Positions 5,219 to 62,150 of a stretch of 64,000 bases of DNA are shown piece after piece. How positions within the stretch are numbered: position 1 is the stretch's first letter; every line of letters begins with the position of its first letter. The position numbers and the translations under genes were made by a program. The notes under the pieces are model-generated. The model did not search any database. It was not told the origin of the DNA and saw only the letters and a program-made list of their open reading frames with translations. This stretch comes from Mariniphaga sp. (lineage in GTDB: Bacteria; Bacteroidota; Bacteroidia; Bacteroidales; Prolixibacteraceae), in contig JAGXGA010000022.1 of the NCBI GenBank assembly GCA_024636975.1, forward strand, positions 7,122 to 71,121. Reading direction: 5' to 3'.

Positions 5219-5659
5219 TGGTAAGTTGATGTTTTACTTTTTCCGGCAAAAGTTTTATCTGAAATTTGCATTATCACCAAAACAACAGAATTCTTTAACA
5301 TTTTTTGCTTCCGGGAATATCTCATAAATGTTTATTTTGCCGGACAGTTTACAGTATAATGTTTATTTGTTGCAGTTACCTTTTTCGATTCGTACCTTAC
5401 GGTGTAATGCATCCCTTTAGATTTATTATTTAAAGTTATACTGCAAAGATATTGGAATTTTATATTTATTTTCATTCGAATAAATTACAGTTAATATTTT
5501 ATATTTAATTAAATATGTTGCTGAAAAAATATCTGTTCTTCGATAATCATGTATGCTTGTCAGCTAGGCAGCAAATTAATTTCCGGTGGAATTGCCCTGA
5601 GTTGTTGGTACCCGGTTGTTTTAATTATTGATGAAAACATGGCAATTTCAATTTAGGTT

Positions 5660-18217: not shown

Positions 18218-18320
18218 TTTTTTAGTTTTTTATTACTACAAAAGTCTTTGTTTGTTACCCGGCTTAAAATAGTATTCAAAACGGGTAAGAATATTATGCT
18301 ACAAAATTAAACTTATAGTT

Positions 18321-18590
18321 TCAATTATTATACTTTTTTATCTTTTTTGGCGGCACCGGATCATATCCCTGCGTTCCCCAGGGATGGCACCTAAGGATTC
18401 TGCGGGTAGCCAACCAAAATCCTTTAAATGGTCCGTGAATTTTTAAAGCTTGCACCGCATATTCCGAACAGGTAGGGTGGTGCCTGCAGGTTGCAGGAGT
18501 GAAAGGCGATATAGCAAATTTGTAAAAATATACCGGCACCAGCAATATCCAGCTCAAACCTGTTTTTATGTATTTCCAGATGGTATTCAT
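18321..18590 (-). CDS. yidD: Membrane protein insertion efficiency factor YidD
   Basis: [37 protein letters not shown] is the YidD signature. Confidence 0.85.
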
Positions 18591-18907
18591 CTTTTGTTTA
18601 TACTTTCTTATTTAGTAGAATTCATAATATATCCATTTTGTTGTGTCTGATTACCAATATTGGTTCCAAAAGTTACAGAAATTCTGAAAGAATTGCCAAA
18701 ATTTTTTAAATTTGTCTTTCCAGATTTGTAATTATTTAAAAACTGAAAATTCAGGTAAAACCTCAAAAAATGGAACAAATAAATAACAATTCGACAGTTA
18801 ATCTGGCTGTAATTGGTAACATATTTTTCATTCCTCGTTCCGTAAACATTTTTAAACTTTAAAAAACCTTATAAAATAAGTAATAAATCAATTAAATTTT
18901 AATAAAT

Positions 18908-19888
18908 ATGATGAAAAGAGTAGCAATTGGGGTTGATATAGGCGGAACCAATACTGCAATAGGAGTAGTTGATCCCGAAGGGAATGTAATGGTAAAAGAT
19001 AATATTCCAACTCCCGCACATGGCGATATAAAACGATACATTGCTGATCTGGCAACAGCCATCAATGAAGTTATCCGTTCGGTAAAGTTATTAAACCAGG
19101 ATCTGGAAATCCTTGGAATAGGTATCGGAGCGCCAAACGGAAATTATTACAGTGGCACAATTGAATATGCACCAAACCTTTCGTTTAAAGGTGTGGTTCA
19201 TTTGGTAGAATTGCTCAGGGAACATTTCCCCAAAATGGAAGCGCTGGCCTTAACCAACGATGCAAATGCTGCTGCAATTGGCGAGATGATTTATGGCGGT
19301 GCAAAAGATATGAAGAATTTTGTGATGTTCACTCTTGGAACCGGCGTTGGCAGTGGTATCATCGTTAATGGAGACCTGGTATACGGGCACGATGGTTTTG
19401 CAGGAGAATGCGGCCATACTACACTGGTGCCTGGTGGCCGCAGATGTGGTTGCGGTGCTCTTGGCCATCTCGAAGCCTACTGCTCTGCTCCCGGGATGAA
19501 ACGGACTGCGTTTGAACTCATGGCCCAATACAATGCCAACGACAGTTTGCTGGCCATTTACTCTTACAACGAGCTCGACTCGAAAATGATTTACGATGCA
19601 GCAGTTAAAGACGATAAAATTGCCCTTGAGGTTTTTGAAAAAACAGGTGCATGGCTCGGACAGGGTCTGGCCGATACGGTTCATCATCTGAGCCCCGAAG
19701 CAGTGTTCCTTTTTGGTGGACCAACTGCTGCCGGTGATTTCATTTTCAACCCAACCAAGGAACATATGGAGAAACACCTTCTTCCTATTTTTAAAGATAA
19801 AATTAAAATCCTTCCTTCGAAACTTAAGCCTGGCGATGCTGCTATTGTAGGAGCAAGCGCATTGGTGTGGAAGGAACTGGAAAAATAA
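18908..19888 (+). CDS. ROK-family glucokinase
   Basis: It has IGVDIGGTNTAIG, GECGHTTLVPGGRRCGCGALGHLE and no HTH domain. Confidence 0.8.
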   Translation: MMKRVAIGVDIGGTNTAIGVVDPEGNVMVKDNIPTPAHGDIKRYIADLATAINEVIRSVKLLNQDLEILGIGIGAPNGNYYSGTIEYAPNLSFKGVVHLVELLREHFPKMEALALTNDANAAAIGEMIYGGAKDMKNFVMFTLGTGVGSGIIVNGDLVYGHDGFAGECGHTTLVPGGRRCGCGALGHLEAYCSAPGMKRTAFELMAQYNANDSLLAIYSYNELDSKMIYDAAVKDDKIALEVFEKTGAWLGQGLADTVHHLSPEAVFLFGGPTAAGDFIFNPTKEHMEKHLLPIFKDKIKILPSKLKPGDAAIVGASALVWKELEK

Positions 19889-49301: not shown

Positions 49302-49414
49302 GAGGGAAGTAGCCGGCGGCAGGTCACAGCAGGCAGCAAGCAAAAAGTAAACGGTATAAAGTCCGTTTAACGGCTTCAGCCGTATAATATAAGAAATAAC
49401 TTAGCAGACCTCTT

Positions 49415-49545
49415 GCGGGCTGAAAGCCCAGCTTAATTCAGCCCAGGGCAGCCGTCCTGGGTAAGAAGTGCCATTATTCCACGCGGCGCAATTACCTACT
49501 CGGATTGAAATGCAAACATTATAGGCGCCGCCTTCTCTGGCCTGG
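49415..49545 (+). repeat. Repeat family A, copy 1 (~130 bp, three GC-rich hairpins)
   Basis: It reads gcgggctgaaagcccag..ttcagcccagggcagccgtcctgggtaag...gcggcgc..cggattgaaatgcaaacat..gcgccgc. It aligns in the same orientation with 61672-61805. Confidence 0.75.
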
Positions 49546-49776: not shown

Positions 49777-49870
49777 GGCGGCTGAAAGCCTGCCTGTTCG
49801 TGCATGCTGGCCCGGCTTAATTCAGCCCAAAGCATTTCGTCAGTTGCCGGACAGGCGCCTCCGGGGTAAA
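49777..49870 (+). repeat. Repeat family A, partial degenerate copy
   Basis: It reads ggcggctgaaagcc...cggcttaattcagccc...ccggacaggcgcctccggggtaaa. Confidence 0.55.
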
Positions 49871-51220: not shown

Positions 51221-53437
51221 TTAATCAGTTTTAAGTGCATTTGGTGCAGTGGTTTCTAGATCAAGATCAAGGTGGGTTAGTTTATCCGTTACTTCAAAAT
51301 CGTATCCGGGGTATTCATACATAGGCATTCGGGGTTCGGTTTCGCCCAGGGAGTAGCCAAACACCCTTTCATATTCATCGCGGATTTCCCCCATGTTTTC
51401 CATTTGCCGCAGGTACTCGGCAAGGGTTTTGGCTTCAACAATAACCACTGTTTCCATCTTGTCAATAATAGGGCTGTGATTTCGTGTACGGTCGTGCCGG
51501 AACTGGAGTATGCGGCGGCCGTATCGTGTAATGCCGATGGTGCGGAAAGTAAGGCTTTTGCCAACGCCTGGAAGGTTCATGATGTTACGATCGGTGGCAA
51601 GGAATGGAATGTTGAGGTTTTTTCTCAAATCCGCCAGATTTTCGATTATATTCCCGGTATGGTGTAACAGTTTCTGCACTTTTGGCAACTCTTCTGCCGG
51701 CAATCTTCCCACGTATTTTTCTTCTATCTCTTCCTGGAGGGCACGGGCGTTAGGGGTAAAGTTGGCGCTGTTCTCCCGGAACCCTTTTACGGTGAACGTA
51801 TAGTAAGTGAGTATGCCGATGTCGTTCAATGTCTTTCGGAGCTTTGCCGTATGTCCGCGTCTTGAGGCAGGTGCCGTAAGCACCAGCTGGTTGACTACAG
51901 CCCATCCGGCATCGAGCAGCATTTTTACTGCTTGCCGCGCTTCCGGGGTAATTTCCATGGGCGATTCGAAATGCGTTTGAATTACAAATTGCCGGATACC
52001 GGCCCGGGAGGCTTTCTTTTTGAAATCGGCAAGAATTTTTACCAACACAGGAGTTACCCGTTGAGGCAGGTAAGCAGGCAGTCGGGTACCTATACGCACC
52101 CTTACCATTTCGGCATATTTTTCATGTTCCCCCCGCAGTTTGTTCTCTTCCTTTTTGCAGACGATCATCCTGTAAATCTCATCCAGTATGTTTTTCAGGC
52201 TGTTGTCGGAACTCATAAGTGCATCTCCGCCTGTAAGCAGGATGTCGCGCAACTGGGTATCGTCTTTAAAATAACTGAGCAATTTTGGCAGACGTTCCTT
52301 CCATGTTTCTTTGGGTTTTAACTTTGTCAGGTTAAAATTGTAGCGTCCGCTCTGGAAGTCGTACATCCTTTGGCAGTATGCACATAGTCCGCCGCAGGCA
52401 CGGCCCATTGTGTCGGGAATAAAGATTGCCACCTCGGGATATCGCCGGTGGATGTTGTGCGAGGGCAGTATCCACCCTGCCGCATTGGGTTTGCCTGCCT
52501 GCACCTTGTCCTCTTTTTCCCAGGCGTGGATTTGTCCGAATTCCTCTGCCAGTTGCCTGCTGTACAATACATAGCAACGGATGGCCAGATCACCGCCCAC
52601 TGCGAAACCCGGCGTTCGCACATTCAACAGCGACAGGTAATATGGGTTAATGAAAAAAGGAATTCCCTTTTCCTTTGCTTCCCGGAGAATGTTCATTGTC
52701 TCCTGGTCAAGGGAGTAATCGAGCAGCTCGTTCAGCATATCGGGAGTCCGGACTGCAAAAGTGAGGTGAAAACGGGCTTCGGTCCACCATGAATTCATTA
52801 GTGAACTTTTTTGTTTAAGGTTTAACCCCGGTTCAAAAGTATAATGGTTACTTTTGATTTCCCCGCTGTCAATTTTTTTAATTAGGAGCCGGATAACCCG
52901 GTCGCGGTTGTTCTTCCGCAAGCCGGCAATTTTTGGTTCTGTACCTGCCGGATAGCGTTCCATCCACTCTTTTACCTGTTCATGGCGTGGAATTTTGAAC
53001 CTCAATTTTCCGTTTAGCTGCCTGAACAAGTAAAACATATCAAGGAAGAAATCGGGTTTTGCACCGCCAATACCAAAATTAGTAGCCAGCCACAACATCT
53101 TTACCGGGCAGGTTTCAGCCAGTTCCCCCGGAATGTTCGGATCGGGCCATGCTTCCCCTTCATGCTCGATGTAATCGAGTATCCGGATAGCTGCCATATC
53201 TCTCCAGGTAAGCAGCTCATAAAACTCATATCCTGAATTTTTTCCATAAAAATATGCTGCTGCTGCCGGATTTTGTTGTAAAATGGGTAAGACCCATTCT
53301 TTGATTCCGGTTTTGGCTTCCAGTTCATTTTTCGAATTTCTGAGAATTTGTTCCAGCATTGGATTTTCCTTCAGTATGGTCAGTAAAATTTTCCGTGCAT
53401 GAACATTAATGGCAATTTTGTCAAGAAAAGTTTTCAT
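51221..53437 (-). CDS. KamA-family (lysine 2,3-aminomutase-like) radical SAM protein, long form
   Basis: The CxxxCxxC cluster ACGGLCAYCQ lies at 52373-52396. LLTGGDALM and NPYYLSLL are KamA-like blocks. I prefer the ATG at 53437 (MKTFLDK) over the TTG at 53479. Confidence 0.7.
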   Translation of the reverse strand: MKTFLDKIAINVHARKILLTILKENPMLEQILRNSKNELEAKTGIKEWVLPILQQNPAAAAYFYGKNSGYEFYELLTWRDMAAIRILDYIEHEGEAWPDPNIPGELAETCPVKMLWLATNFGIGGAKPDFFLDMFYLFRQLNGKLRFKIPRHEQVKEWMERYPAGTEPKIAGLRKNNRDRVIRLLIKKIDSGEIKSNHYTFEPGLNLKQKSSLMNSWWTEARFHLTFAVRTPDMLNELLDYSLDQETMNILREAKEKGIPFFINPYYLSLLNVRTPGFAVGGDLAIRCYVLYSRQLAEEFGQIHAWEKEDKVQAGKPNAAGWILPSHNIHRRYPEVAIFIPDTMGRACGGLCAYCQRMYDFQSGRYNFNLTKLKPKETWKERLPKLLSYFKDDTQLRDILLTGGDALMSSDNSLKNILDEIYRMIVCKKEENKLRGEHEKYAEMVRVRIGTRLPAYLPQRVTPVLVKILADFKKKASRAGIRQFVIQTHFESPMEITPEARQAVKMLLDAGWAVVNQLVLTAPASRRGHTAKLRKTLNDIGILTYYTFTVKGFRENSANFTPNARALQEEIEEKYVGRLPAEELPKVQKLLHHTGNIIENLADLRKNLNIPFLATDRNIMNLPGVGKSLTFRTIGITRYGRRILQFRHDRTRNHSPIIDKMETVVIVEAKTLAEYLRQMENMGEIRDEYERVFGYSLGETEPRMPMYEYPGYDFEVTDKLTHLDLDLETTAPNALKTD

Positions 53438-53570
53438 GATTTTTGATTCCAATATCCCCTTTTTTAATAATATAAGCAAAAAAGCTTGATTTTCAATTTG
53501 TAATTTTGAAGTAGAAATGGTTTTTAAAACACTTTTAACAGGGTAAAATCATAAACCATAATTGTAAGTG

Positions 53571-53624
53571 GTAACAGTCCTGAAGGGGGCGAAAGCAAAA
53601 GCAACGGGCAACACCTGTTCAACC
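53571..53624 (+). repeat. Repeat family B, copy 1
   Basis: cctgaagggggcgaaagcaaaagcaacgggcaacacctgtt aligns with 58891-58943 (cccgaatggggcgtaagcaacagcaacgggcaacgcccgtt). Confidence 0.65.
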
Positions 53625-53717: not shown

Positions 53718-56700
53718 TCAGGGTAAATCTACTTCCATATTTCGTAACTGAATATCAATAGCACTTTCGCTCGATTTTATAAAGTATTTCATATCTGTTA
53801 ACCCAAACACATTTACATTGTCGTGTCCTGTTATATAAGTATTGTTTTCAATGAATTTCTCCTTGCCAAAAAGGATTTTTTCTACCTCAGAAGATGGCCT
53901 AACTAAATGATTTCCAAAATTATTACGATAAGACTGTGATATTTTTTCAATAAATTCATTGTCCCTAATTGTGGAATATGGATGTAGAATTATCAAGTAA
54001 TCTTTTGCCCTGCTAATCGCCACATTATAAATATACTCCTTCGACAGTAAACATTTTGGATGGTTTGTGTAATAGTAATTATTAGGATTGCTAATAAAAA
54101 AAACTATATCACATTCATCGCCCTGAAAACCATGAACAGTGTCGGAATAAACTTTAACTTCTTCGGAAATGCCAAAAGAAGTAATCAATTTATTCATAAG
54201 AATTGCCTGTGCCTTGTATGGTGCAATCAATCCGATTGTCCATTGTTGATTTTTATTAATTGCATCAAAGTATTTGACGATTTCTGAAACCAAAATCGCA
54301 CAGTAGGTTTGGTATGAACTATAAAGCAATTTATTGATTTTGTAAATTGAGTCTTCCTGATTTAATGGAATATCAATAAAGGTAACAGCAGTTGAAATCA
54401 ACGTTTTAAATTCTCCGGGTAAAGTTTTGCTTTCTTTTCTGTTTACTTCTCTGTCGTGTTGCAAAAGCTTCGAGTAAGAAAGTTCACTAAAAAGTTGTCC
54501 AATTTGCTTTGTGCTGCGATATTGTTTATCAAGATTTTCAATTTCATCAATTTCTCTAACATTTTGCTCTTTCGGATTAAAACTTCCAAGCCCCATCATT
54601 TTATATATATTCTCGTCTTGAAAATCAAAATTTTCCAACTCATTGTCATTTACTTCTATAACAGGTGGAATTTGTTTCGGGTCACCTGCTACTATAAATT
54701 GTGCATTTGGATTAGTTTTAAACAAAGACAAAATTGCAAAAACAATGTAATGCAGTCCTGTCATTGACGATTCGTCGAAAATTACATAATCAAAGTTTCG
54801 GTGTTTGAAAAGTTTATAGGAGAGTTTTTCGTTTTCTTTTTCGCTATTTACAACATAGTAGGGTAAACGGTGAATCGTAGAAACGACAACATTTATATAT
54901 TTTAAAGCATTTTTACTTAAAGAATCTCTGTAGATTTCTTCGTCCATCTCTTTCAGTTCAGGGTCAGCAGATGCAGTTCCAAGTCTAGCTATAAGAATAT
55001 CTGAATTTATATTGTATAACTTTTTGCAAAGCACATCGGCGGCCTTATTTGTGGGCGTGAGAATAAGGAATTTTGCATTACGATTTTCCTTCAAGATATC
55101 GATTATTTTGTTGCATAAAGAAGTGGTTTTCCCAGTTCCGGGAGGTCCATAAATGTATTTTAGGGCGGGCAAAGTTTCCTTAATATCTTCCCATTCAATA
55201 ATATTATTTTTATTGACAAAAGCTTTAAATAGTTTATCTAACAATTCAACAACAGGCGTAAATTTAATCTCAACCCTAATTACACTTGATAATCGCGAGA
55301 CAAGTGACTGTGGAATTGATTCTCGGCAATAAATTAGCAGGTCCTGTCCTTTTTTTGACACACCTTCTACCTTAACGTTTTCATCTCTATGATTCTTCCG
55401 TATCAGGGTTACTTTTAAATCCTCGCTATCTTCAATACTCTGAGGAATGTATGCGCTTGCACCGCAAAGCAAAAAGTATTTGTCGGAAACTTTATCGTCA
55501 ATGTTATAACGTTTTATTTCCTGAAATGAAACCGACTTTTGCTTTATTGTAGTTTGCTTTTCGCTATATGTCAATAGTAACTTCAAATATGCTTCGAACC
55601 ACTGATAGGAATATTTAGTACTTTCGTTAATTGCCTTTGATAATGCTCTTCTGCTTTTCTTTATTTCTAGTTTATTTTTAATTTCAGTTACGCCTTTTGC
55701 TAACTCATCGTCTTCGTCGAAATCCGAAGATAAAATATTCTTTTTTATTTTTTCCTGATGAGGCTTTGTTTTTACAATAGATTTTGACAATGAATCTAAC
55801 TTTTCAATAGCATTCTCCAGTTCTTCAGAATCATATTCTGACTCTTTGGAATTTTGTTTGGTTTTTAGTTCTGTTTTTGCTTTTTCATTCTCTAAAAGTT
55901 CTTTTGCTCTTCTTGCTTCTTCTTCACTTCCAAACATTTGCGATATTCGTTGTTCTTTTGTTAAAATCACACTTGGTTTAAATTGTAATAACTCAATAAG
56001 TAGTTGTGCTTCAGTGCTTTTTACATCATATCCTTCCGCTAAGTCGTTGATAGTTATTTTATGTGGCGCAACAAAATTGCCATTTTTGGTGGCAAGCCAT
56101 TTTGATTCATGAAGAAATTTTTCGGCAGAAGATTTAAAGTATTCAGTGCGCGCTGAGTAATAAAAATAATCATGCTTCCCTTTAATGACCTCATTAAAAT
56201 TCTGATAACTATTCACGATTTTAATCATCTGCTTCCAAAGTAATTGCAAACGTGAAATGTCTTTTGATTCAACTATTTCTGAACTTCCATCTATTATTTT
56301 GTCAAAGACATAATTACGGGTTGAATGCGAAAGAGGAAGTTTATTCTTTTCTCGCCAATCTGTTATTTCTATTGTTAAAACTTTGGGAATAGTACTTACT
56401 CCAAGTTTCAACAAGAACTCATACAATAATTCGCGATCGGCATTATCAATTTGTTTATGATAATCGTCCAAATCAACAAACAGTGTATCGGGTTTTGTTT
56501 CAAAGTATTTATCCAAATCCTTATTTGGGTAATAAATTTCACATGGTCTTCCACGATAGGTTTTTTGGTCTTTTTTACTTTTATACGATACAAACTCTTT
56601 ATCTTTTAATAAAGTAATAAAATTGTCGATTATTGTTTTATTGCCGTGATTCTCTTTGTAGTATCTAAAGAATTTTTTGAAATGAGTATCTGTGTCTATT

Positions 56701-58466
56701 TCTCCACCGATATCGTATAAAGGCAAAATGTGGAAGATTTCGTCTTTGATATCCGGTTCTTTGATTCCAAATGCGGTTATAAATTCCTTTGAATATTTAT
56801 TCGATAAAAGGTTTTTATGAATAGTAATAAATGCCGAATTCCCGCCATCGCTCGGCAAAAACAGAATTGGGTGGTAGTTTTTTGTATTACTTTCATATCG
56901 AAAAGCAGCCGCAGGGTTTCGTCCTGTATCTTTAAAAATAGGTTTGGTTTTGAATTTTTCAATATATGATTTCCTCTCAGAAAGATATTCATAGAATTGA
57001 TGTAACCACTCAAAAGTCTGTTTCTCAATAAATCCAGTATCTATCATATTAGCAATTTTATTCTCCAAATCTAAATTTGCTTTAATAAGATTTGGCTCTT
57101 TTCTATTCCATGAATTCTCACTACCGCCATCAATGTAATCTGTTATTTCTGAATCCTTTCTTCTTCCAAGGGTTGTAAATACCCATTTTGCGTGAGGATT
57201 TCCTGTAAGTTGAGAAAGTTTTTCGTTGGAAAAAAGGAATGTTAAATCAGGCGTATCAGCCCAATAAGCATTCTTTTTATTTGTATACTCTCCGTCTTTT
57301 GCTGGTAATAATTCTTCTGTTTGAAATTTCTTTTTAATTTTTTTAAAAAATGGATAAAAGAGTTTTTCTTCTTCAGAATCATCCTCCAGAAAGTCGTTTT
57401 CTTGGTAAGGAATAATATTAATAATATCATCATCAATCAATTGCATATCTCTTAAAATCAAGAAACTATCTGAGGCTAATTTCGCAAGTTTCTTAACTGC
57501 CTTTTTATTCCATCCTTCATTCCTTTTTATTCCTTCGCGGCTGTCAGTCAATAAAAAAGGTGCGTGAACAATGAAATTTAAATTGGTTGTTTCTTTTGTA
57601 GGGAAAAAGCAAAAAGCAGGAAGATTTTTTGGTTTCAATTTCCCTTTTTCGAGAAAAAATCCAACAGAATAAGAATGCAACCGCCCTTCAATTTGTCTTG
57701 AAAAAAGCAACATTTTTTCATTTTTTTTATTCATTCCAACTTGTTGCGACAATTCAAGTTTTCTATAAGAAATATTACCGTTTTCTTCTACTTCTCTAAT
57801 AATTTTTTGAGAATACTCGCCGGTTTCACCATTGGCATCCCATCTTACTTCCAGCAAATTTGAAAGAAACAAAATCGGATAACTCAAAGATTTTAGCTTG
57901 CCTAAAATATCGGCATATGCTTTCACTTTGGGCATTTCTTTTTTGTCGAATGGAAAATAAAATACGGTTTCATCGGATTTTCTTTTATCAATATCCATTT
58001 TCAATTTTACAGGAACAATAAATCGTTCTATTTTAAATTGAAAATCGCGGTCATAGATATGAGGTGTTTTACTATATTGAAAAACTGCTTTAAAACCTAC
58101 TCCAAATTTCCCAATGGTAGAATGGTCTGTCTTATTAGATTGAGCAACTGCTGTGATTGAATTTATATCACCCAAACAATTAATTTGTTTGTCTTTCTTT
58201 TCAGTCTCAGGATTTGAAACCCAAAAATGTTTTGTTCCATTGTGCTTAAAGTATAATCCGTTTACTTTCAAATTAAATTCAGCCATTGTCGCTTTTGCGT
58301 CATCGGCATTTTGTAGCAACTCATAAATAAAATGCGCTTGGTCTGAATATTTTTCTACAACACTATCCCACATGTTGCCTACAGCAAAATCTTCCATCAA
58401 TGTGTTAGCTGTATTATTTCTTTTCCCAAAGAGTTTCTCAAACCATATCTTTTGTTGTTCGGTCAT
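53718..58466 (-). CDS. 1582-aa fusion protein: N-terminal sacsin/MORC-type GHKL ATPase, ~750-aa uncharacterised middle, C-terminal Upf1-like SF1 helicase
   Basis: The GHKL N-box is YELLQNADDA (aa 48-57) and the G-box is IGKFGVGFKAVF (aa 118-129). FIVHAPFLLTDSRE is sacsin-like. The helicase has Walker A YGPPGTGKTT (aa 1106-1115), Walker B VIFDESSM and GDPKQIPPV. Further helicase motifs are QYRS, VHGFQGDECDIVF and NVAISRAKDYLIILH. A hand-counted 100-nt sample gave ~29% GC, against mid-40s or higher in neighbouring genes. Confidence 0.8.
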   Translation of the reverse strand: MTEQQKIWFEKLFGKRNNTANTLMEDFAVGNMWDSVVEKYSDQAHFIYELLQNADDAKATMAEFNLKVNGLYFKHNGTKHFWVSNPETEKKDKQINCLGDINSITAVAQSNKTDHSTIGKFGVGFKAVFQYSKTPHIYDRDFQFKIERFIVPVKLKMDIDKRKSDETVFYFPFDKKEMPKVKAYADILGKLKSLSYPILFLSNLLEVRWDANGETGEYSQKIIREVEENGNISYRKLELSQQVGMNKKNEKMLLFSRQIEGRLHSYSVGFFLEKGKLKPKNLPAFCFFPTKETTNLNFIVHAPFLLTDSREGIKRNEGWNKKAVKKLAKLASDSFLILRDMQLIDDDIINIIPYQENDFLEDDSEEEKLFYPFFKKIKKKFQTEELLPAKDGEYTNKKNAYWADTPDLTFLFSNEKLSQLTGNPHAKWVFTTLGRRKDSEITDYIDGGSENSWNRKEPNLIKANLDLENKIANMIDTGFIEKQTFEWLHQFYEYLSERKSYIEKFKTKPIFKDTGRNPAAAFRYESNTKNYHPILFLPSDGGNSAFITIHKNLLSNKYSKEFITAFGIKEPDIKDEIFHILPLYDIGGEIDTDTHFKKFFRYYKENHGNKTIIDNFITLLKDKEFVSYKSKKDQKTYRGRPCEIYYPNKDLDKYFETKPDTLFVDLDDYHKQIDNADRELLYEFLLKLGVSTIPKVLTIEITDWREKNKLPLSHSTRNYVFDKIIDGSSEIVESKDISRLQLLWKQMIKIVNSYQNFNEVIKGKHDYFYYSARTEYFKSSAEKFLHESKWLATKNGNFVAPHKITINDLAEGYDVKSTEAQLLIELLQFKPSVILTKEQRISQMFGSEEEARRAKELLENEKAKTELKTKQNSKESEYDSEELENAIEKLDSLSKSIVKTKPHQEKIKKNILSSDFDEDDELAKGVTEIKNKLEIKKSRRALSKAINESTKYSYQWFEAYLKLLLTYSEKQTTIKQKSVSFQEIKRYNIDDKVSDKYFLLCGASAYIPQSIEDSEDLKVTLIRKNHRDENVKVEGVSKKGQDLLIYCRESIPQSLVSRLSSVIRVEIKFTPVVELLDKLFKAFVNKNNIIEWEDIKETLPALKYIYGPPGTGKTTSLCNKIIDILKENRNAKFLILTPTNKAADVLCKKLYNINSDILIARLGTASADPELKEMDEEIYRDSLSKNALKYINVVVSTIHRLPYYVVNSEKENEKLSYKLFKHRNFDYVIFDESSMTGLHYIVFAILSLFKTNPNAQFIVAGDPKQIPPVIEVNDNELENFDFQDENIYKMMGLGSFNPKEQNVREIDEIENLDKQYRSTKQIGQLFSELSYSKLLQHDREVNRKESKTLPGEFKTLISTAVTFIDIPLNQEDSIYKINKLLYSSYQTYCAILVSEIVKYFDAINKNQQWTIGLIAPYKAQAILMNKLITSFGISEEVKVYSDTVHGFQGDECDIVFFISNPNNYYYTNHPKCLLSKEYIYNVAISRAKDYLIILHPYSTIRDNEFIEKISQSYRNNFGNHLVRPSSEVEKILFGKEKFIENNTYITGHDNVNVFGLTDMKYFIKSSESAIDIQLRNMEVDLP

Positions 58467-58547
58467 AAATTCTAATTTTTTAAGGATCGTTTAAAAATAA
58501 AATATAGTATTACTGGTAGCAAGCCATTCTTCTAACTGGATTCGATA

Positions 58548-58680
58548 TCAGGAAATGCCTTTACATATTCCTCCCAAGTATTCAAATAGAGAATTTTCAA
58601 TTTGATCATCTATTAATTTCTGATGGTTTTTTGTGCTGAATGTAAGATGAAACATAAACTTTGGATAATGATTGTGGCAT
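58548..58680 (-). pseudogene. Frameshifted, 3'-truncated IS200/IS605-type Y1 (RAYT-like) transposase stub
   Basis: The minus strand reads ATG..MPQSLSKVYV. One extra T follows, then HLTFSTKNHQKLIDDQIENSLFEYLGGICKGIS and TGA. This matches the N-terminal pattern M-QSLSK-Y-HL-FSTKN of REP-associated/IS200-like transposases. The HuH and Tyr regions are absent. Confidence 0.55.
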
Positions 58681-58756
58681 GATTAAATGATTTTTGGTAT
58701 GAAGTTTAAGAATAGTAAGTTAAAATTTTTTTTATTTAGTTGCAAATTTTATTTGC

Positions 58757-59005
58757 CATTGGGCCATTGCCCCGGAAGGGAATAGGAGTTTATCTGCTAC
58801 ATCGGGCGTTACCCGATGCTGATACCGGAAGGGCGTAGCCCTTCTTTCCTGTAAAATGATATTATATTATATTCTATAATTGTAGTTTGACAAAACCCCG
58901 AATGGGGCGTAAGCAACAGCAACGGGCAACGCCCGTTGGAAGGTGGGAAGGGCATCCTGAAAGCCCTGCAGGGGCGTAGGCAAGGTGTAATGATTAATCC
59001 CGTCA
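58757..59005. repeat. Cluster of GC-rich hairpin modules (REP/BIME-like), including repeat family B copy 2 at 58891-58943
   Basis: The modules are gggccattgccc, atcgggcgttacccgat, gggcgtagccc, cccgaatgggg, gggcaacgccc and gggcatcctgaaagccc. Each is a short GC stem with a 3-9 nt loop. Confidence 0.65.
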
Positions 59006-59202: not shown

Positions 59203-60087
59203 ATGACACATAAAGCAGGATTTGTAAATATAGTTGGAAACCCGAATGTGGGCAAATCGACCCTGATGAATGCCCTGGTAGGGGAGAAATTATCAATTAT
59301 CACCAAAAAGATGCAGACCACCCGTCACCGCATTAAAGGCATTGTGAACGGAGAGGATTTTCAGATTGTTTATTCCGATACGCCCGGAATATTGAAGCCG
59401 GGATATAAGCTTCAGGAGACCATGATGAAGTTTGTAGACACAGCTCTTACCGATGCCGATGTAATACTTTTTGTAACCGATGTGGTGGAAAAACAAGGTA
59501 AAAATCCTGATTACATCGAGCGCATCCGCAAATCGAATGTGCCGGTAATTGCGGTCATTAATAAAATTGATTTATCGGACCAGGAAAAAGTAACCCGGTT
59601 GTTCGATTACTGGAGCGAAGTTTTCCCCGGGGGCAGCATTTACCCGGTTTCGGCACAGGAGAAATTTAACCTTGAACCGGTATTCAACCGTATCCTTGAA
59701 CTTCTTCCTGAGAATCCTCCGTTTTTTGGAAAAGATGAATTTACCGACAGGAACGAAAGGTTTTTCATGCAGGAGATCATCCGCGAAAAAATATTGATGC
59801 ATTATGAGAAGGAGATTCCTTACTCTGTGGAAGTTGAGGTGGAAACGTTTAAAGAAAAGGGAGGTCTTATTGAAGTCAGGGCGGTAATCCATGTTGTCCG
59901 CGACAGCCAGAAAGGCATTATCATTGGTAAGGCCGGTAAAATGCTTAAAATCATTGGCAGCGAAGCCCGGCTCGATGCCGAGGAGTTTTTTGGAAAAAAA
60001 ATTTTCCTGGAATTGTATGTAAAGGTTTCCAAGGACTGGCGCGAAAAGGACAATCAGCTTAAAAATTTTGGTTACGGAGAATATTGA
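59203..60087 (+). CDS. era: GTPase Era
   Basis: [14 protein letters not shown] (G1), DTPG (G3) and NKID (G4) are followed by a C-terminal KH domain. Confidence 0.95.
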   Translation: MTHKAGFVNIVGNPNVGKSTLMNALVGEKLSIITKKMQTTRHRIKGIVNGEDFQIVYSDTPGILKPGYKLQETMMKFVDTALTDADVILFVTDVVEKQGKNPDYIERIRKSNVPVIAVINKIDLSDQEKVTRLFDYWSEVFPGGSIYPVSAQEKFNLEPVFNRILELLPENPPFFGKDEFTDRNERFFMQEIIREKILMHYEKEIPYSVEVEVETFKEKGGLIEVRAVIHVVRDSQKGIIIGKAGKMLKIIGSEARLDAEEFFGKKIFLELYVKVSKDWREKDNQLKNFGYGEY

Positions 60088-60168: not shown

Positions 60169-61479
60169 ATGAGCAGCAGAATATTAGCTATAGTAGGAAG
60201 GCCTAATGTGGGCAAATCGACTTTATTCAACCGGCTTACCGAAACGCGGGAGGCCATAGTTGATGAGGTGTCGGGTGTTACCCGCGACCGTAATTACGGT
60301 AAGGCAGAATGGAATGGGAAGATTTTTTCAGTTATCGATACCGGAGGATACGTAGTCAATTCAGACGATGTGTTTGAGTCGGAAATTAATAAACAGGTGC
60401 ATCTGGCTATTGAAGAAGCTGATGTGATTCTTTTTGTTACCGATGTGGAATCGGGAATTACCGATCTCGATGATGCCATTGCTGCCATTTTACGCAGAGC
60501 CAGAAAGAAAGTTGTGGTTGCCGTAAACAAGGTGGATAACAATATGCGCATTGCGGATGCCCAGGAGTTTTATGGGCTGGGATTGGGAGAAATCTATACC
60601 ATCTCCTCGATGACCGGCAGCGGAACGGGCGATCTGCTCGACAAGGTGGCCGAACAGTTTCCCGATGATGCAGGAAATGAGGAGGAACATGAACTGCCAT
60701 ATTTTTCAGTGGTAGGACGACCCAATGTTGGTAAATCGTCGTTCATTAACAGCCTCCTCGGTGAAGACAGGTATATTGTTACGGATGTGGCCGGTACTAC
60801 ACGGGACTCTATCCATACCCGCTATAATAAATTCGGGCATGATTTCATAATTATCGATACCGCCGGCCTCCGTAAAAAGGGAAAGGTTCATGAGAATATT
60901 GAGTTCTACTCTGTGCTGCGCTCTGTGCGTACCATCGAAAGTTCGGATGTATGCATGCTCATGGTTGATGCCACCCGCGGTATGGAAGCACAGGATGTAA
61001 GCATCTTTAACCTGATTGTACGTAACAAAAAGGGGGTGGTAATACTTGTGAATAAATGGGATGTCATCGAAAAAGACCAGCATTCAACCAAAAAGATGGA
61101 GGCTGAAATCCGTGAACGCATTGCACCTTTTAATGATGTGCCGGTGCTTTTTATTTCAGCGCTGACCAAACAACGGGTGCATAAGTCACTCGATGTGGCC
61201 ATGCAGGTATTTAAAAACCGGCAGCAGCGCATTAAAACATCCAAGCTAAACGATGTGTTGCTGGAAGCCATTGAGAAATACCCGCCTCCCTCGGTAAAAG
61301 GGAAGTACATCAAAATAAAATTTGTCACGCAGTTACCCTCACCAACCCCATCATTTGCACTGTTTGCCAACTTACCGCAATACGTTAAAGAACCCTATAA
61401 GCGGTATATTGAAAACCAGATCCGTGAGAATTTTGACTTCACAGGCGTGCCCATTCAGGTTTATTTCAGGCAGAAGTAG
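60169..61479 (+). CDS. der: Ribosome-associated GTPase Der (EngA), two tandem GTPase domains
   Basis: [12 protein letters not shown] and [12 protein letters not shown] are G1 motifs. Two DTGG/DTAG and NKVD/NKWD sets are followed by a KH-like C-terminus. Confidence 0.95.
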
Positions 61480-61566: not shown

Positions 61567-61671
61567 AATTTGCTTAAGCAATAATATTTTATAAATAAGA
61601 TGTAAAAGTTGACAAACAAAGCAACTGGTGAGACTTTCTCAAGTGTAGGAGGAAAGCCATGTAGCCCTCCT

Positions 61672-61805
61672 ACGGGCTGAAAGCCCAGATTATTCAGCCC
61701 GGTGGCAGCGCCCCGGGTAAGTAGAGCAATCATCCCCCGCAGCGCAAGCACTGACTCCGATTGAAATGCAAACATCGCATGCGCCGTTTTCTCCGGCCTG
61801 AATGG
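61672..61805 (+). repeat. Repeat family A, copy 2
   Basis: It reads acgggctgaaagcccag..ttcagcccggtggcagcgccccgggtaag...ccgattgaaatgcaaacat...ctccggcctg and is collinear with 49415-49545. Confidence 0.75.
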
Positions 61806-61956
61806 ATACGAGTTGTAAACACTAATTAATCGAATTGTATTTAATTAAGGATTTAGTTTTATGATAGAAATATTGGAGGTAGAAGAAATGACTCCTTTCC
61901 ACCAATCTACATCTAATCTCATTAAATCAAAAATAAATTTCCACTCTTCCAATTTA

Positions 61957-62150
61957 TTATGAGGCTAAAGCCAAATGAGATTAATGCTCTCTCAACCCGT
62001 TGGCTAAAGCCCCACGGCAATAAATCACCACTTAATCACTACTTAATCTTACTTAATCACCCTGTCAAATTTTGATGAGGCTAAAGCCACTGGAGGTGAA
62101 TGCTCCATCAACCCATTGGCCCAGCGGCAATAATCCCATAAATCACCACA
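61957..62150 (+). repeat. Repeat family C: two ~75-bp direct copies (61957-62032 and 62072-62150) separated by acttaatc micro-repeats
   Basis: Copy 1 reads tgaggctaaagcc..atgctc..caacccgttggc..cggcaataa..atcaccac. Copy 2 reads tgaggctaaagcc..atgctccatcaacccattggc..cggcaataa..atcaccac. Confidence 0.7.

What the first reader, a model, noticed from the sequence alone, without database searches (positions are those of the whole stretch)
53718..58466. Single 1582-aa ORF fusing a sacsin/MORC-type GHKL ATPase to an Upf1-like SF1 helicase: candidate stand-alone defence or nucleic-acid surveillance protein
Seen directly: the N-terminus has the GHKL N-box ELLQNADDA (Asn53), the G-box GKFGVGF (aa 119-125) and the sacsin-type block FIVHAPFLLTDSRE. 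The C-terminal ~480 aa carry a full SF1 Upf1/Dna2-like motif set. That set comprises GPPGTGKT with Lys1113, FDESSM, GDPKQIPPV, QYRS, APYKAQ, HGFQGDECD and NVAISRAK. The gene stands alone, is far more AT-rich than its neighbours, and is bracketed by repeat clusters and a dead transposase. Established: GHKL/MORC-type ATPases and COG1112/Upf1-like helicases each recur in prokaryotic conflict systems. Upf1-like helicases, for example, occur in Mokosh- and Nhi-type systems alongside nuclease or PLD modules. Inference: I do not recognise this exact architecture (GHKL plus long unknown middle plus SF1 helicase, with no visible nuclease, PLD or methylase partner) as any named system. Two NTPase engines in one polypeptide would suit a sensor-plus-translocase design.
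Basis: partly seen in the sequence, partly recalled or inferred. Interest (0 to 1): 0.85.

Follow-up and report, generated by a model that had tools for sequence, protein, structure and literature searches.

The report
Tiamat-like ATPase fused to Upf1-like helicase
This is an intact 1582-residue gene that joins an Hsp90/sacsin-type ATPase module, shared with the little-understood Tiamat anti-phage protein, to an Upf1-like helicase in place of Tiamat's nuclease; it belongs to a large, unnamed, horizontally spread family that sits in bacterial defence islands.

Summary
ORF 53718-58466 (-) encodes 1582 aa, every quoted motif sits at the stated residue, and GC is 32% against 42-45% around it.

- **N-terminus:** Profiles support a sacsin/Hsp90-type GHKL ATPase, not a MORC type. 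The first ~830 aa are homologous to PADLOC TmtA (Tiamat) models.
- **C-terminus:** It is an Upf1/Senataxin/Dna2-like SF1B helicase, closest among defence proteins to Mokosh MkoA. No nuclease, PLD or methylase domain was found. Tiamat's NOV_C/DUF3883 nuclease is absent and the helicase takes its place.
- **Family:** The architecture is not a one-off. About 66 of the 69 untruncated best loci among GTDB species representatives carry the same fusion, across at least eight phyla and one archaeon. Both ATPase sites are invariant in 69 sequences.
- **Context:** Close relatives stand alone among Gabija, Avs3, Lamassu and R-M genes. Sister clades sit directly after PDC-S68 (17 of 72 loci) or a type III R-M pair.
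- **Here:** The gene is a solitary low-GC insert next to era/der. It is flanked by a 72-nt direct repeat and a decayed IS200/RAYT-like remnant.

Verdict: a new, untested helicase-effector variant of the Tiamat kind. The mechanism is inferred.

The parts
53718..58466 (-). Whole ORF, 1582 aa plus stop codon: a Tiamat-like GHKL module fused to an Upf1-like SF1B helicase
   Evidence: identical protein P0001 in public data
57477..58364 (-). Sacsin/Hsp90-type GHKL (Bergerat-fold) ATPase domain, about aa 35-330
   Evidence: Pfam SACS aa 35-138 and NCBIfam P_loop_sacsin. Sacsin SR1 5v44/5v46 matched by sequence and by fold. E49, N53, D56, G99, N102, K112, G119, G122, G124, T167, T290, R310 and N320 are invariant in 69 sequences.
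58296..58322 (-). GHKL N-box ELLQNADDA (E49 as general base, N53 as Mg ligand; these roles come from GHKL knowledge, not from a test here)
   Evidence: invariant
58092..58112 (-). GHKL G-box / ATP lid GKFGVGF, aa 119-125
   Evidence: invariant
57534..57575 (-). Sacsin-type block FIVHAPFLLTDSRE, aa 298-311, with invariant R310. R310 may correspond to the Hsp90 middle-domain arginine (inference).
55977..57476 (-). Middle region, aa 331-830. It is shared with Tiamat TmtA and resembles the Hsp90 middle domain. It has no Pfam family and no conserved polar (catalytic-looking) residues.
   Evidence: PADLOC TmtA PDLC03972 matches aa 40-808. aa 140-830 alone score E 5e-27. The model has pLDDT 80.7 and Foldseek aligns 570-740 columns to full-length Hsp90. 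Only hydrophobic or aromatic positions are conserved in the diverse alignment A3. No Pfam hit.
55590..55976 (-). Charged, low-complexity, length-variable linker, aa 831-959
   Evidence: Sequence read directly. It is the least conserved stretch of the 69-sequence alignment (0.27-0.40). No PADLOC hit and only weak, sub-threshold Pfam matches (HEAT_ECM29 E 0.029, CENP-Q E 2.2) for aa 830-1100.
53937..55589 (-). Upf1-like SF1B helicase module, aa 960-1510: a beta-rich pre-helicase region (probably the 1B barrel and stalk; inference) followed by RecA1 and RecA2
   Evidence: AAA_11, AAA_19 and AAA_12. IGHMBP2 family and PLuB helicase-like models, both below cut-off. MkoA E 7e-39. PDB sequence hits to SETX, Dna2, IGHMBP2 and Upf1. 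Foldseek hits to Upf1, Senataxin/Sen1, IGHMBP2 and Dna2 at E about 1e-16 (the model is only pLDDT 61.8).
55125..55148 (-). Walker A GPPGTGKT (K1113)
   Evidence: invariant 69/69
54762..54779 (-). Walker B / motif II FDESSM (D1231, E1232)
54003..54026 (-). Motif VI NVAISRAK (R1486, arginine finger)
53721..53936 (-). Family-specific C-terminal tail, aa 1511-1582. E1529, N1552, and in 66-68 of 69 sequences N1542, H1548, Y1561, D1571 and Q1573, are conserved. Function unknown.
   Evidence: no Pfam hit; modelled at low confidence as four short strands
53548..53619 (+). Downstream copy of the 72-nt direct repeat that brackets the gene; contains the hairpin AACGGGCAACACCTGTT
58866..58937 (+). Upstream copy of the 72-nt direct repeat (75% identical), inside a cluster of GC-rich REP-like hairpins at about 58760-58985
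58500..58680 (-). Frameshifted remnant that begins MPQSLSKVYV. From memory this resembles the N-terminus of an IS200/RAYT-type (Y1) transposase. No profile test was run.

Best explanation
**What it is.** The gene encodes a stand-alone anti-phage or anti-mobile-element protein of the Tiamat superfamily. The usual C-terminal NOV_C/DUF3883 nuclease has been replaced by an Upf1-like 5'-3' SF1B helicase.

**Shown here.**
- The first ~830 aa are a sacsin/Hsp90-type GHKL ATPase plus an Hsp90-like middle region, homologous to TmtA.
- The last ~620 aa are an Upf1/Senataxin/Dna2-like helicase followed by a conserved 50-aa tail.
- Both nucleotide sites are invariant across a cross-phylum family.
- The same N-terminal module is joined in other proteins to a NOV_C nuclease, to a histidine-kinase-type HATPase_c, or to an unknown ~220-aa domain.
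- Family members sit in variable defence islands.

**Inferred mechanism.**
1. The N-terminal module acts as an ATP-gated dimerising clamp and sensor, as in Hsp90, MutL and MORC. It recognises an infection cue, either a phage protein 'client' or a foreign nucleic-acid structure.
2. Clamp closure licenses the helicase.
3. The helicase translocates on single-stranded DNA or RNA of the invader. It dismantles replication or transcription intermediates, or exposes them to unlinked host nucleases such as R-M enzymes.

In this genome the gene is a recently acquired, low-GC single-gene islet inserted between a 752-aa ORF and era.
For: **Domains.** Pfam, NCBIfam and PADLOC hits. Foldseek of the N-terminal model (pLDDT 80.7) finds Hsp90 and sacsin. 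Foldseek of the C-terminal model finds Upf1, SETX, IGHMBP2 and Dna2.

**Tiamat homology beyond the ATPase domain.** Residues 140-830 alone score E 5e-27 against 147-808 of the 1302 positions of a TmtA model. A bona fide SACS+NOV_C protein on a Sulfuricurvum plasmid, next to NERD and QatABCD, shares aa 40-834 and scores TmtA E 2.5e-83.

**Swappable C-termini.** Helicase in 68 of the top 150 representatives. HATPase_c in P0201. A shared unknown C-terminal end in P0135, P0140, P0152 and others.

**Selection.** E49, N53, D56, G119, G122, G124, R310, K1113, D1231, E1232, Q1265, R1317 and R1486 are 69/69 invariant in sequences 27-67% identical.

**Spread.** At least 583 loci among GTDB species representatives carry the N-terminal module. 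Of the best 80, about 66 of 69 untruncated genes carry the fusion. They span Bacteroidota, Bacillota, Planctomycetota, Proteobacteria, Acidobacteriota, Spirochaetota and one methanogen. Two plasmid copies exist.

**Context.**
- Gabija, a 2153-aa NACHT protein, 2CompART/ARG genes, a caspase-helicase, recombinases, IS elements and an Eco57I-type MTase lie next to close homologues.
- Avs3a, LmuA/B/C, HEC-06, type II/IIG R-M, mad3 and NsnB hits occur among 98 ORFs within 7 kb of 13 close-clade loci.
- PDC-S68 lies immediately upstream in 17 of 72 loci, and a type III MTase+REase pair in 4-5 loci.

**GC.** The gene is lower in GC than its flanks in 46 of 60 loci, and by 10-13 points in this window.

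**Precedent.** A GHKL plus Hsp90-like middle domain has been proposed as a sensor N-terminus of Shedu nucleases (bioRxiv 10.1101/2023.08.10.552793).
Against: - No experiment exists for any helicase-fused member. Tiamat itself has no published mechanism in the library searched.
- No nuclease or other killing domain is detectable, so how a bare helicase would stop a phage is unexplained.
- In this window the neighbours are housekeeping genes, not defence genes.
- The defence-island evidence comes from a few dozen loci and was not scored against a genome-wide background.
- Sister clades are tightly linked to PDC-S68 or type III R-M, so the solo form could depend on partners encoded elsewhere.
- The C-terminal structural model is of modest quality (pLDDT 61.8).
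- Sensor and effector roles are assigned from domain-swapping logic only.
Confidence: 0.6

Rival explanations
1. The protein is an accessory motor of a multi-gene restriction or helicase system rather than a self-sufficient system. It would work with a type III R-M enzyme or a RecD-like PDC-S68 partner, for example to load, loop or clear DNA as proposed for MORC/paraMORC ATPases in R-M operons. The copy in this window would then be an orphan that depends on partners encoded elsewhere, or does little alone.
For: - In 17 of 72 loci a ~1200-aa PDC-S68 RecD-like helicase gene ends within a few to about 190 bases upstream on the same strand.
- In L013, L082, L084 and L094 (and similarly L014) a type III MTase and REase_III directly precede the gene, with gaps of about 20-40 nt in L013, L082, L084 and L094 (about 150 nt in L014).
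- Iyer et al. 2008 (PMC2292703) describe the same logic for other GHKL families.
- There is no nuclease in the polypeptide.
Against: - The clade to which the window protein belongs (at least 50% identity) shows no recurrent neighbour in 13 loci.
- The 752-aa ORF downstream has no homologue near any other family member.
- All catalytic residues stay invariant in solo copies.
- Adjacency to different systems is also what plain defence-island clustering would give.
Confidence: 0.22
2. The protein is a cargo or maintenance function of mobile elements, for example a replication, transfer or addiction helicase of plasmids, ICEs or transposons. On this reading it is not an immune protein, and its patchy low-GC distribution simply reflects the element's mobility.
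For: - Full-length homologues occur on Chryseobacterium and Hymenobacter plasmids.
- Serine recombinases, IS21, IS91, Transposase_mut and integrase genes lie nearby in several loci.
- A transposase remnant and flanking direct repeats occur in the window.
Against: - No conserved element backbone accompanies the gene; the neighbours differ from locus to locus.
- On the plasmids it sits inside an R-M-like operon, not beside rep, par or tra genes.
- Among 50,697 phage records there is only one weak partial hit.
- The N-terminal homology is to a validated defence protein family.
Confidence: 0.1
3. The protein is a housekeeping nucleic-acid surveillance or chaperone-coupled RNA/DNA quality-control enzyme, a bacterial analogue of Upf1, Senataxin or sacsin.
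For: - The helicase fold matches RNA-surveillance helicases (Upf1, SETX, IGHMBP2).
- Sacsin and Hsp90 are chaperones.
- The flanking genes here are era and der, which are ribosome-assembly GTPases.
Against: - The gene is 10-13 GC points below its surroundings.
- No fixed genomic context exists in any of about 70 loci.
- The distribution is sporadic across phyla, with near-relatives in unrelated lineages.
- Defence genes cluster around homologues.
Confidence: 0.05

Closest known systems
Tiamat (TmtA), a single-gene anti-phage system (Millman et al. 2022; PADLOC models PDLC03964-03972)
   Same: - The N-terminal ~830 aa are homologous: a sacsin/Hsp90-type GHKL plus the long middle region (TmtA E 7e-47 for aa 40-808; aa 140-830 alone E 5e-27).
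- It is a single large polypeptide.
- It occurs in defence islands and on plasmids.
   Different: - The part of the TmtA profile after position ~808 is not matched.
- Canonical relatives end in a NOV_C/DUF3883 (PD-(D/E)XK-type) nuclease. This protein ends in a ~550-aa Upf1-like helicase plus a conserved tail.
- The helicase alone hits no TmtA model (best E 0.012).
- No helicase-type member has been tested experimentally.
Mokosh (MkoA / MkoC), COG1112 Upf1-like helicase systems
   Same: The helicase module is the closest defence-database match (MkoA E 7e-39, MkoC E 1e-25). It has the same Upf1-like fold that was reported for MkoA (bioRxiv 10.1101/2022.05.11.491447).
   Different: - There is no PLD nuclease, either fused or adjacent, and no Ser/Thr kinase domain.
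- Mokosh has no GHKL module.
MORC / paraMORC GHKL ATPases of restriction-modification operons (Iyer, Abhiman and Aravind 2008, PMC2292703)
   Same: A GHKL ATPase works next to helicases. Sister clades of this family sit directly after a type III MTase+REase pair, which is the same contextual theme.
   Different: - The GHKL here is sacsin/Hsp90-type. There is no HATPase_c_3 hit, and MutL/MLH1 is only a weak structural match.
- The helicase is SF1, not SFII, and is fused rather than adjacent.
- The window copy has no R-M neighbour.
PDC-S68 (PADLOC phage-defence candidate; RecD-like SF1 helicase of ~1200 aa)
   Same: It lies immediately upstream on the same strand in 17 of 72 family loci. This suggests an unrecognised two-gene unit in those clades.
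   Different: It is a different protein. No PDC-S68 homologue lies next to the window gene or next to its close clade.
Nhi / Dna2-like nuclease-helicases
   Same: Upf1/Dna2-type SF1B helicase core.
   Different: No nuclease domain is present. PADLOC Nhi and AbiO models did not hit this protein.
Shedu variants with GHKL + Hsp90-like middle N-terminal domains
   Same: A GHKL plus middle-domain module sits at the N-terminus of a defence effector and has been proposed as a sensor.
   Different: The effector there is a DUF4263 nuclease and the GHKL is HATPase_c_3 type. No sequence relationship was tested here.

Membership tests
Tiamat (TmtA) | N-terminal sacsin/Hsp90-type GHKL ATPase matching TmtA profiles | tested here: met
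   Seven TmtA models (of nine in PADLOC) hit, the best being PDLC03972 at E 6.9e-47 for aa 40-808. Pfam SACS and NCBIfam P_loop_sacsin are above their cut-offs.
Tiamat (TmtA) | TmtA middle region downstream of the ATPase domain | tested here: met
   Residues 140-830 alone score E 5e-27 over profile positions 147-808 of 1302.
Tiamat (TmtA) | C-terminal NOV_C/DUF3883 (PD-(D/E)XK-type) nuclease | tested here: not met
   No NOV_C hit. Profile positions beyond ~808 are unmatched. The SACS+NOV_C comparator is L012:7908-10928. The literature states that Tiamat has a PD-(D/E)XK domain.
Tiamat (TmtA) | Would be called Tiamat by PADLOC or DefenseFinder with their own coverage and score thresholds | not testable with these tools
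   Only raw HMM scores are available. HMM coverage is about 59% and target coverage about 49% for the best model. The pipelines' thresholds are not available here.
Tiamat (TmtA) | Demonstrated phage protection | not testable with these tools
   This needs an experiment.
Upf1-like SF1B helicases (COG1112; Pfam AAA_11 + AAA_12) | Complete SF1 motif set (Walker A, Walker B/II, III, IV, V, VI) and the Upf1-like fold | tested here: met
   AAA_11 at E 1.7e-12 and AAA_12 at E 7e-22. Motifs located and invariant in 69 sequences. Foldseek hits to Upf1, SETX, IGHMBP2 and Dna2 at E about 1e-16.
Mokosh | PLD-family nuclease, fused (type II) or in an adjacent gene (type I) | tested here: not met
   No PLD domain in the protein or in the neighbours.
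Mokosh | COG1112 helicase homologous to MkoA/MkoC | tested here: met
   MkoA at E 6.8e-39 and MkoC at E 1.1e-25 for aa 1090-1582.
MORC / paraMORC | MORC-type GHKL (HATPase_c_3) with an S5 transducer domain | tested here: not met
   No HATPase_c_3 hit at E<=0.1. The structural neighbours are Hsp90, GRP94 and sacsin. MLH1 appears only at E about 1e-3.
MORC / paraMORC | Operon with an SFII helicase, endonuclease and methylase | tested here: not met
   The window neighbours are housekeeping genes. The feature is met only in distant sister clades: L013, L014, L082, L084 and L094.
Sacsin/Hsp90-type GHKL ATPases | Bergerat-fold N-box (ExxxNxxD) and G-box (GxxGxG), plus Hsp90-like middle-domain architecture | tested here: met
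   Motifs at aa 49-57 and 119-125. Foldseek finds full-length Hsc82/Hsp90 at E 4e-8 over 570-740 columns, although TM-scores are low (0.26-0.35), and sacsin SR1 at E 3e-5.
PDC-S68-linked two-gene form | A ~1200-aa RecD-like PDC-S68 gene immediately upstream on the same strand | tested here: not met
   The space upstream of the window gene holds only the transposase remnant and hairpins. The partner is present in 17 of 72 other loci.
Nhi | Nuclease domain fused to an Upf1-like helicase | tested here: not met
   No nuclease domain was found and no Nhi model hit.

The most novel reading that the evidence does not exclude
This may be a nuclease-free, two-motor, single-polypeptide immune system. 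An Hsp90/sacsin-like ATP clamp would recognise a phage protein or nucleic-acid cue and license an Upf1-like helicase. The helicase itself would be the effector, stripping or unwinding invader replication or transcription intermediates, or unwinding at toxic levels to cause abortive infection. The invariant 50-aa C-terminal tail (E1529, N1542, H1548, N1552, Y1561, D1571, Q1573) could be a new catalytic or coupling element. That would define a distinct, widespread branch of the Tiamat superfamily. It would also show that the Tiamat N-terminal module is a general-purpose sensor that drives interchangeable effectors: nuclease, helicase or kinase-like ATPase.
Probability: 0.3. Interest if true: 0.8.

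Novelty: new variant of a known kind. Interest (0 to 1): 0.6.

Why it matters
- **A handle on Tiamat.** Tiamat is a validated anti-phage system with no known mechanism. The same ~830-aa Hsp90/sacsin-like module is wired to a nuclease, a helicase, a kinase-type ATPase or an unknown domain. That gives a testable picture of it as a modular sensor or switch.
- **A gap in annotation.** The helicase-fused branch is common, spans many phyla and is annotated only as a generic helicase or ATPase.
- **A mechanistic question.** If the branch protects on its own, immunity can be executed by a helicase without a nuclease.
- **Testable partnerships.** Its tight linkage to PDC-S68 and to type III R-M in sister clades points to specific cooperative arrangements.
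- **Eukaryotic relatives.** It may also shed light on what sacsin- and NO VEIN-type GHKL modules do in eukaryotes.

Tried and rejected
- **MORC-type GHKL.** Rejected. There is no HATPase_c_3 hit, and the structural neighbours are Hsp90 and sacsin.
- **Hidden nuclease, PLD or methylase.** Pfam at E<=5 on four separate segments found nothing (aa 140-560, 560-830, 830-1100 and 1495-1582). PADLOC on three segments found only TmtA models for aa 140-830, nothing for aa 830-1100, and helicase-type models (MkoA/MkoC, GajB, PDC-S68 and others) for aa 1090-1582. No conserved polar residues occur in the middle region of the diverse alignment.
- **The 752-aa downstream ORF as a partner.** Rejected. It has no Pfam or PADLOC hit and no homologue near any of 72 family loci.
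- **An RNA element or special promoter around the gene.** No Rfam hit was found, and promoter- and terminator-like sites occur at chance frequency.
- **Phage origin.** Only one weak partial hit appeared among 50,697 phage records.
- **Empty-site comparison.** Exact-protein look-ups of the flanking era gene and the 752-aa gene returned only the same strain carrying the insert. The insertion event could not be reconstructed.
- **Literature.** Searches for Tiamat/TmtA, sacsin-like plus helicase, PDC-S68 and PLuB found no description of this architecture or of a Tiamat mechanism. The published Millman 2022 paper is not held, and the preprint version does not mention Tiamat.
- **Shorter representatives.** The ~1030-1200-aa representatives without a helicase were first suspected to be truncations. 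Several share genuine alternative C-termini, so not all are fragments. Contig-end truncation cannot be excluded for many others.


Full report

Yes. The ORF listing finds a single ATG-started ORF at 53718..58466 on the - strand, 1582 aa long. I re-derived the coordinates by script:

| Motif | Residues |
|---|---|
| ELLQNADDA | 49-57 (N53) |
| GKFGVGF | 119-125 |
| FIVHAPFLLTDSRE | 298-311 |
| GPPGTGKT | 1107-1114 (K1113) |
| FDESSM | 1230-1235 |
| GDPKQIPPV | 1261-1269 |
| QYRS | 1315-1318 |
| APYKAQ | 1415-1420 |
| HGFQGDECD | 1445-1453 |
| NVAISRAK | 1481-1488 |

The gene is 32.2% GC. The rest of the window is 42.2% and the 10-kb flanks are 45.4%.

The neighbours are housekeeping genes:
- Upstream on the other strand lie era (59203-60087) and der (60169-61479).
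- On the other side lie a 752-aa ORF without any family hit, a polysaccharide deacetylase, an FAD-dependent protein and ABC/MacB/HlyD transporter genes.

The 'repeat clusters and dead transposase' are also there:
- A 72-nt direct repeat (53548-53619 and 58866-58937, 75% identical) brackets the gene. Its 19-nt core occurs nowhere else in the window, against 0 expected.
- The 736-nt upstream spacer holds GC-rich hairpins.
- It also holds a frameshifted fragment that starts MPQSLSKVYV. I recognise this from memory as the start of IS200/RAYT-type transposases, but I did not test it with a profile.

**2. What are the domains?**

*N-terminus.* Pfam gives SACS (aa 35-138, E 6.6e-13). NCBIfam gives P_loop_sacsin at 68.8 bits against a cut-off of 50. 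The MORC-type model HATPase_c_3 does not hit.

An AlphaFold2 model of aa 1-850, built on 41 homologues, has mean pLDDT 80.7. Foldseek against the PDB gives the following:
- Full-length Hsc82/Hsp90 comes first (E 4e-8 to 1e-5). The alignments span 570-740 columns, but TM-scores are low (0.26-0.35), so domain orientation differs.
- Sacsin SR1 follows (E 3e-5), then GRP94.
- MLH1 appears only at about 1e-3.

The module is therefore a sacsin/Hsp90-type GHKL with an Hsp90-like middle region, not a MORC.

*C-terminus.* The sequence evidence is:
- Pfam gives AAA_11 and AAA_19 (aa 1096-1269) and AAA_12 (aa 1308-1494, E 7e-22).
- NCBIfam gives the IGHMBP2 family and 'PLuB helicase-like', both below their cut-offs.
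- PDB sequence search gives SETX-like helicases, Dna2, IGHMBP2 and Upf1.

The model of aa 940-1582 is mediocre (pLDDT 61.8). It still retrieves Upf1, Senataxin/Sen1, IGHMBP2 and Dna2 at E about 1e-16 over nearly its whole length. The beta-rich stretch before Walker A is therefore probably the Upf1-type 1B barrel and stalk (inference).

*Between the two halves.* A charged, poorly conserved linker spans aa 831-959.

*After the helicase.* A ~70-aa tail follows. Across 69 diverse sequences, E1529 and N1552 are invariant, and N1542, H1548, Y1561, D1571 and Q1573 are conserved in 66-68 of 69. The tail has no Pfam match. I cannot explain it.

*What is absent.* No nuclease, PLD or methylase domain was found, whether the protein was scanned whole or in segments.

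**3. The link to a named system**

PADLOC's HMM library places the N-terminal half in Tiamat:
- Seven TmtA models (of the nine in PADLOC) hit. The best is PDLC03972, E 6.9e-47, with aa 40-808 aligned to profile positions 38-808 of 1302.
- The match is not just the ATP-binding domain. Residues 140-830 scanned alone still score E 5e-27 over positions 147-808.
- The helicase half hits MkoA (E 6.8e-39) and MkoC of Mokosh, but no TmtA model (best E 0.012).

What canonical Tiamat looks like was checked on a plasmid protein from Sulfuricurvum kujiense:
- It shares aa 40-834 with the query.
- It scores TmtA E 2.5e-83.
- It has SACS at the N-terminus and NOV_C (DUF3883) at the C-terminus.
- It sits between a NERD gene and QatABCD.

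A preprint also lists Tiamat among single-gene systems with a PD-(D/E)XK domain. The window protein therefore keeps the Tiamat core and replaces the nuclease with a helicase.

**4. How big and how old is the family?**

- The word-indexed search returned more than 120 clusters at 57-67% identity and 100% coverage. All are 1536-1690 aa long. All those that carry an organism name are Bacteroidota. The only names given are 'DEAD/DEAH box helicase' and 'AAA family ATPase'.
- An exhaustive phmmer search with aa 1-850 against 1.84 billion 50%-identity representatives found 3581 hits at E<=1e-3 and 1251 at E<=1e-30.
- Among the best 150, every protein longer than 1500 aa (68 of them) has the helicase.
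- Shorter representatives include true alternative architectures. One group ends in a histidine-kinase-type HATPase_c (P0201). Another shares an unannotated C-terminal end (P0135, P0140, P0152, P0220, P0244 and others).
The best 80 come from Bacteroidota, Bacillota, Planctomycetota, Gamma-, Alpha- and Deltaproteobacteria, Acidobacteriota, Chloroflexota, Spirochaetota and the archaeon Methanimicrococcus hongohii.
- After local ORF extension, about 66 of 69 untruncated genes carry the helicase fusion.
- Two plasmids, Chryseobacterium pA2BH1 and Hymenobacter pHsw1, carry full-length homologues at 32% and 27% identity.
- In a 69-sequence alignment spanning 27-67% identity, all catalytic residues of both ATPase sites are invariant 69/69. 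These are E49, N53, D56, G119, G122, G124, R310, K1113, T1114, D1231, E1232, Q1265, R1317 and R1486.

Both engines are therefore under purifying selection.

**5. Context**

Close relatives (at least 50% identity) have no recurrent neighbour. They sit among defence and mobility genes:

| Host | Neighbours |
|---|---|
| Sphingobacterium | Gabija (OLD-TOPRIM + UvrD), a 2153-aa NACHT protein (Avs3a by PADLOC), a 2CompART/ARG cluster |
| Chryseobacterium | a caspase-DEAD helicase, 2CompART/ARG, a serine recombinase, DUF1016 |
| Alkaliflexus | IS21, an Eco57I-type methylase, IS91, an integrase |
| Chitinophagaceae | mostly unannotated genes |

Among 98 ORFs within 7 kb of 13 such loci, PADLOC finds Avs3a, LmuA/B/C, HEC-06, type II and IIG R-M, mad3 and NsnB at E<=1e-8.

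More distant clades differ:
- In 17 of 72 loci a ~1200-aa gene lies immediately upstream on the same strand. It is PADLOC's candidate PDC-S68 (E = 0), a RecD-like SF1 helicase.
- In L013, L082, L084 and L094, and similarly L014, a type III methyltransferase and REase_III directly precede the gene.

In 46 of 60 loci the gene has lower GC than its flanks. The mean difference is -4.4 points and the extreme is -26. Phage genomes essentially lack the gene.

I did not compute a background-corrected defence score, so the island evidence is qualitative.

**6. How it most likely works**

*Shown here:*
- Two intact nucleotide-hydrolysing sites.
- An N-terminal module shared with a validated defence protein.
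- Interchangeable C-terminal modules.
- A defence-island, horizontally transferred lifestyle.

*From established knowledge of the families:*
- GHKL ATPases of the Hsp90, MutL, GyrB and MORC kind are ATP-driven dimerising clamps.
- Upf1-like SF1B helicases translocate 5'-3' on single-stranded RNA or DNA and strip proteins or unwind duplexes.

*Inferred:* The N-terminal module is the sensor or switch and the helicase is the output.
1. A cue, either a phage protein bound like an Hsp90 client or a foreign nucleic-acid structure, closes the clamp.
2. Clamp closure activates the helicase.
3. The helicase disrupts invader replication or transcription intermediates, or feeds them to nucleases encoded elsewhere.

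A comparable sensor role has been proposed for GHKL plus Hsp90-like N-terminal domains of some Shedu nucleases.

The main rival is that the protein is an accessory motor for R-M or PDC-S68 rather than self-sufficient. The tight operons in sister clades and the lack of a nuclease favour it. The partner-less but fully conserved close clade weakens it. Roles as mobile-element cargo or as a housekeeping surveillance enzyme fit the data less well (section 5).

**7. Comparison and novelty**

- *Tiamat.* The protein works like, and is homologous to, the front part of Tiamat. It fails Tiamat's nuclease feature.
- *Mokosh.* It shares Mokosh's helicase. It lacks the PLD nuclease and the kinase.
- *MORC/paraMORC.* It echoes the MORC/paraMORC-R-M theme of Iyer et al. 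2008. Its GHKL and helicase are of different classes, and the two are fused rather than adjacent.

I found no paper describing the fusion or any Tiamat mechanism in the searchable library. The library lacks many subscription papers, including the published Millman 2022 article. Whether PADLOC or DefenseFinder would already label it 'Tiamat' depends on coverage thresholds that I could not check.

I therefore rate it a new variant of a known kind: a widespread, unnamed, helicase-effector branch of the Tiamat superfamily. It is not a categorically new system and not unique to this window.

**8. This particular copy**

It is an intact, solitary, low-GC insert between a 752-aa ORF and era. It is bracketed by a 72-nt direct repeat and lies next to a decayed transposase-like fragment and REP-like hairpins. 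This suggests acquisition at a repeat-rich intergenic site. No strain lacking the insert was found, so the event could not be reconstructed.

The source organism is not identified. The nearest relatives are 74% identical over a partial match in a Draconibacterium MAG and 62-67% identical in Bacteroidales/Marinilabiliales-type genomes. These point to Bacteroidota.

Noticed in passing
window 53548-53619 and 58866-58937: A 72-nt direct repeat (75% identical) exactly brackets the gene, 5318 nt apart. Its 19-nt hairpin core occurs only at these two places in the window. It could mark the insertion or recombination site of the gene cassette.
   Followed up: partly
window 58500-58985: A frameshifted ORF fragment starts MPQSLSKVYV, which looks IS200/RAYT-like from memory and was not profile-tested. 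It is followed by a cluster of GC-rich hairpins such as GGGCGTAGCCC and AACGGGCAACGCCCGTT, resembling REP/BIME elements.
   Followed up: partly
window 49406-49544, 49790-49836, 61663-61800, 61942-62120: Other dispersed intergenic repeats occur in the window. They include a GGGCTGAAAGCCC-type family of 47-109 nt at 64-75% identity and a tandem pair of 63 nt. The genome appears rich in REP-like elements.
   Followed up: no
window 51221-53479 (-): A 752-aa ORF lies directly downstream of the gene on the same strand (238-nt gap, GC about 0.48). It has no Pfam or PADLOC hit and no homologue next to any other family member. Its function is unknown.
   Followed up: partly
L030:6278-9865, L056:6102-9809 and 15 further loci (L024, L033, L039, L040, L041, L043, L048, L055, L057, L058, L070, L073, L081, L088, L089): A ~1200-aa RecD-like helicase that matches PADLOC candidate PDC-S68 full-length (E = 0) lies beside the GHKL-SF1 gene in 17 of 72 loci. 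In nearly all of them it is immediately upstream on the same strand. This suggests that the supposedly single-gene candidate PDC-S68 is often half of a two-gene unit.
   Followed up: partly
L013 3038-12824; L014 904-12995; L082, L084, L094: In a distant clade (27-37% identity), including two plasmids, the gene directly follows a type III methyltransferase and REase_III. In L013 and L014 it is in turn followed by further helicase or primase-polymerase genes. This looks like a possible composite R-M-plus-motor operon.
   Followed up: partly
P0192, P0201, P0204, P0210, P0228; and P0132, P0135, P0140, P0152, P0220, P0244, P0245, P0268: The same ~830-aa N-terminal module is also found fused to a histidine-kinase-type HATPase_c domain (Pfam-confirmed for P0201; inferred for the other four from a shared C-terminal end motif), or to an unannotated ~200-aa C-terminal domain ending in an 'F-x-x-x-H-L-x-D-L'-like motif.
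   Followed up: partly
window 53721-53936 (aa 1511-1582): The C-terminal tail after the helicase is conserved across phyla. E1529, N1542, H1548, N1552, Y1561, D1571 and Q1573 are invariant or nearly so. It has no family match and a low-confidence structural model, so its role is unexplained.
   Followed up: partly
L033, L039, L046, L048, L055, L057, L061, L073, L074, L076, L078, L081 (3' ends of the focal genes): Twelve members, mostly from Bacillota, carry an extra 110-180-aa C-terminal extension beyond the tail. Most share a conserved beta-rich block (KGAINGWCYLVPYEGKLK...), and two have a Cys-rich variant. The one extension scanned (L033) has no Pfam hit, and none looks like a nuclease.
   Followed up: partly
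L004 5419-9863 and L009/L010/L011 equivalents: Three unannotated genes (216, 702 and 562 aa) sit directly upstream of the Chryseobacterium-type homologues on the same strand. In L009-L011 a serine recombinase lies just upstream of the trio; in L004 one lies about 6 kb downstream of the focal gene. They may be another uncharacterised system or island cargo.
   Followed up: no
window 5001-6000 and 18001-19000: Two other low-GC patches (0.344 and 0.331, against about 0.42) might mark further acquired DNA in the window.
   Followed up: no
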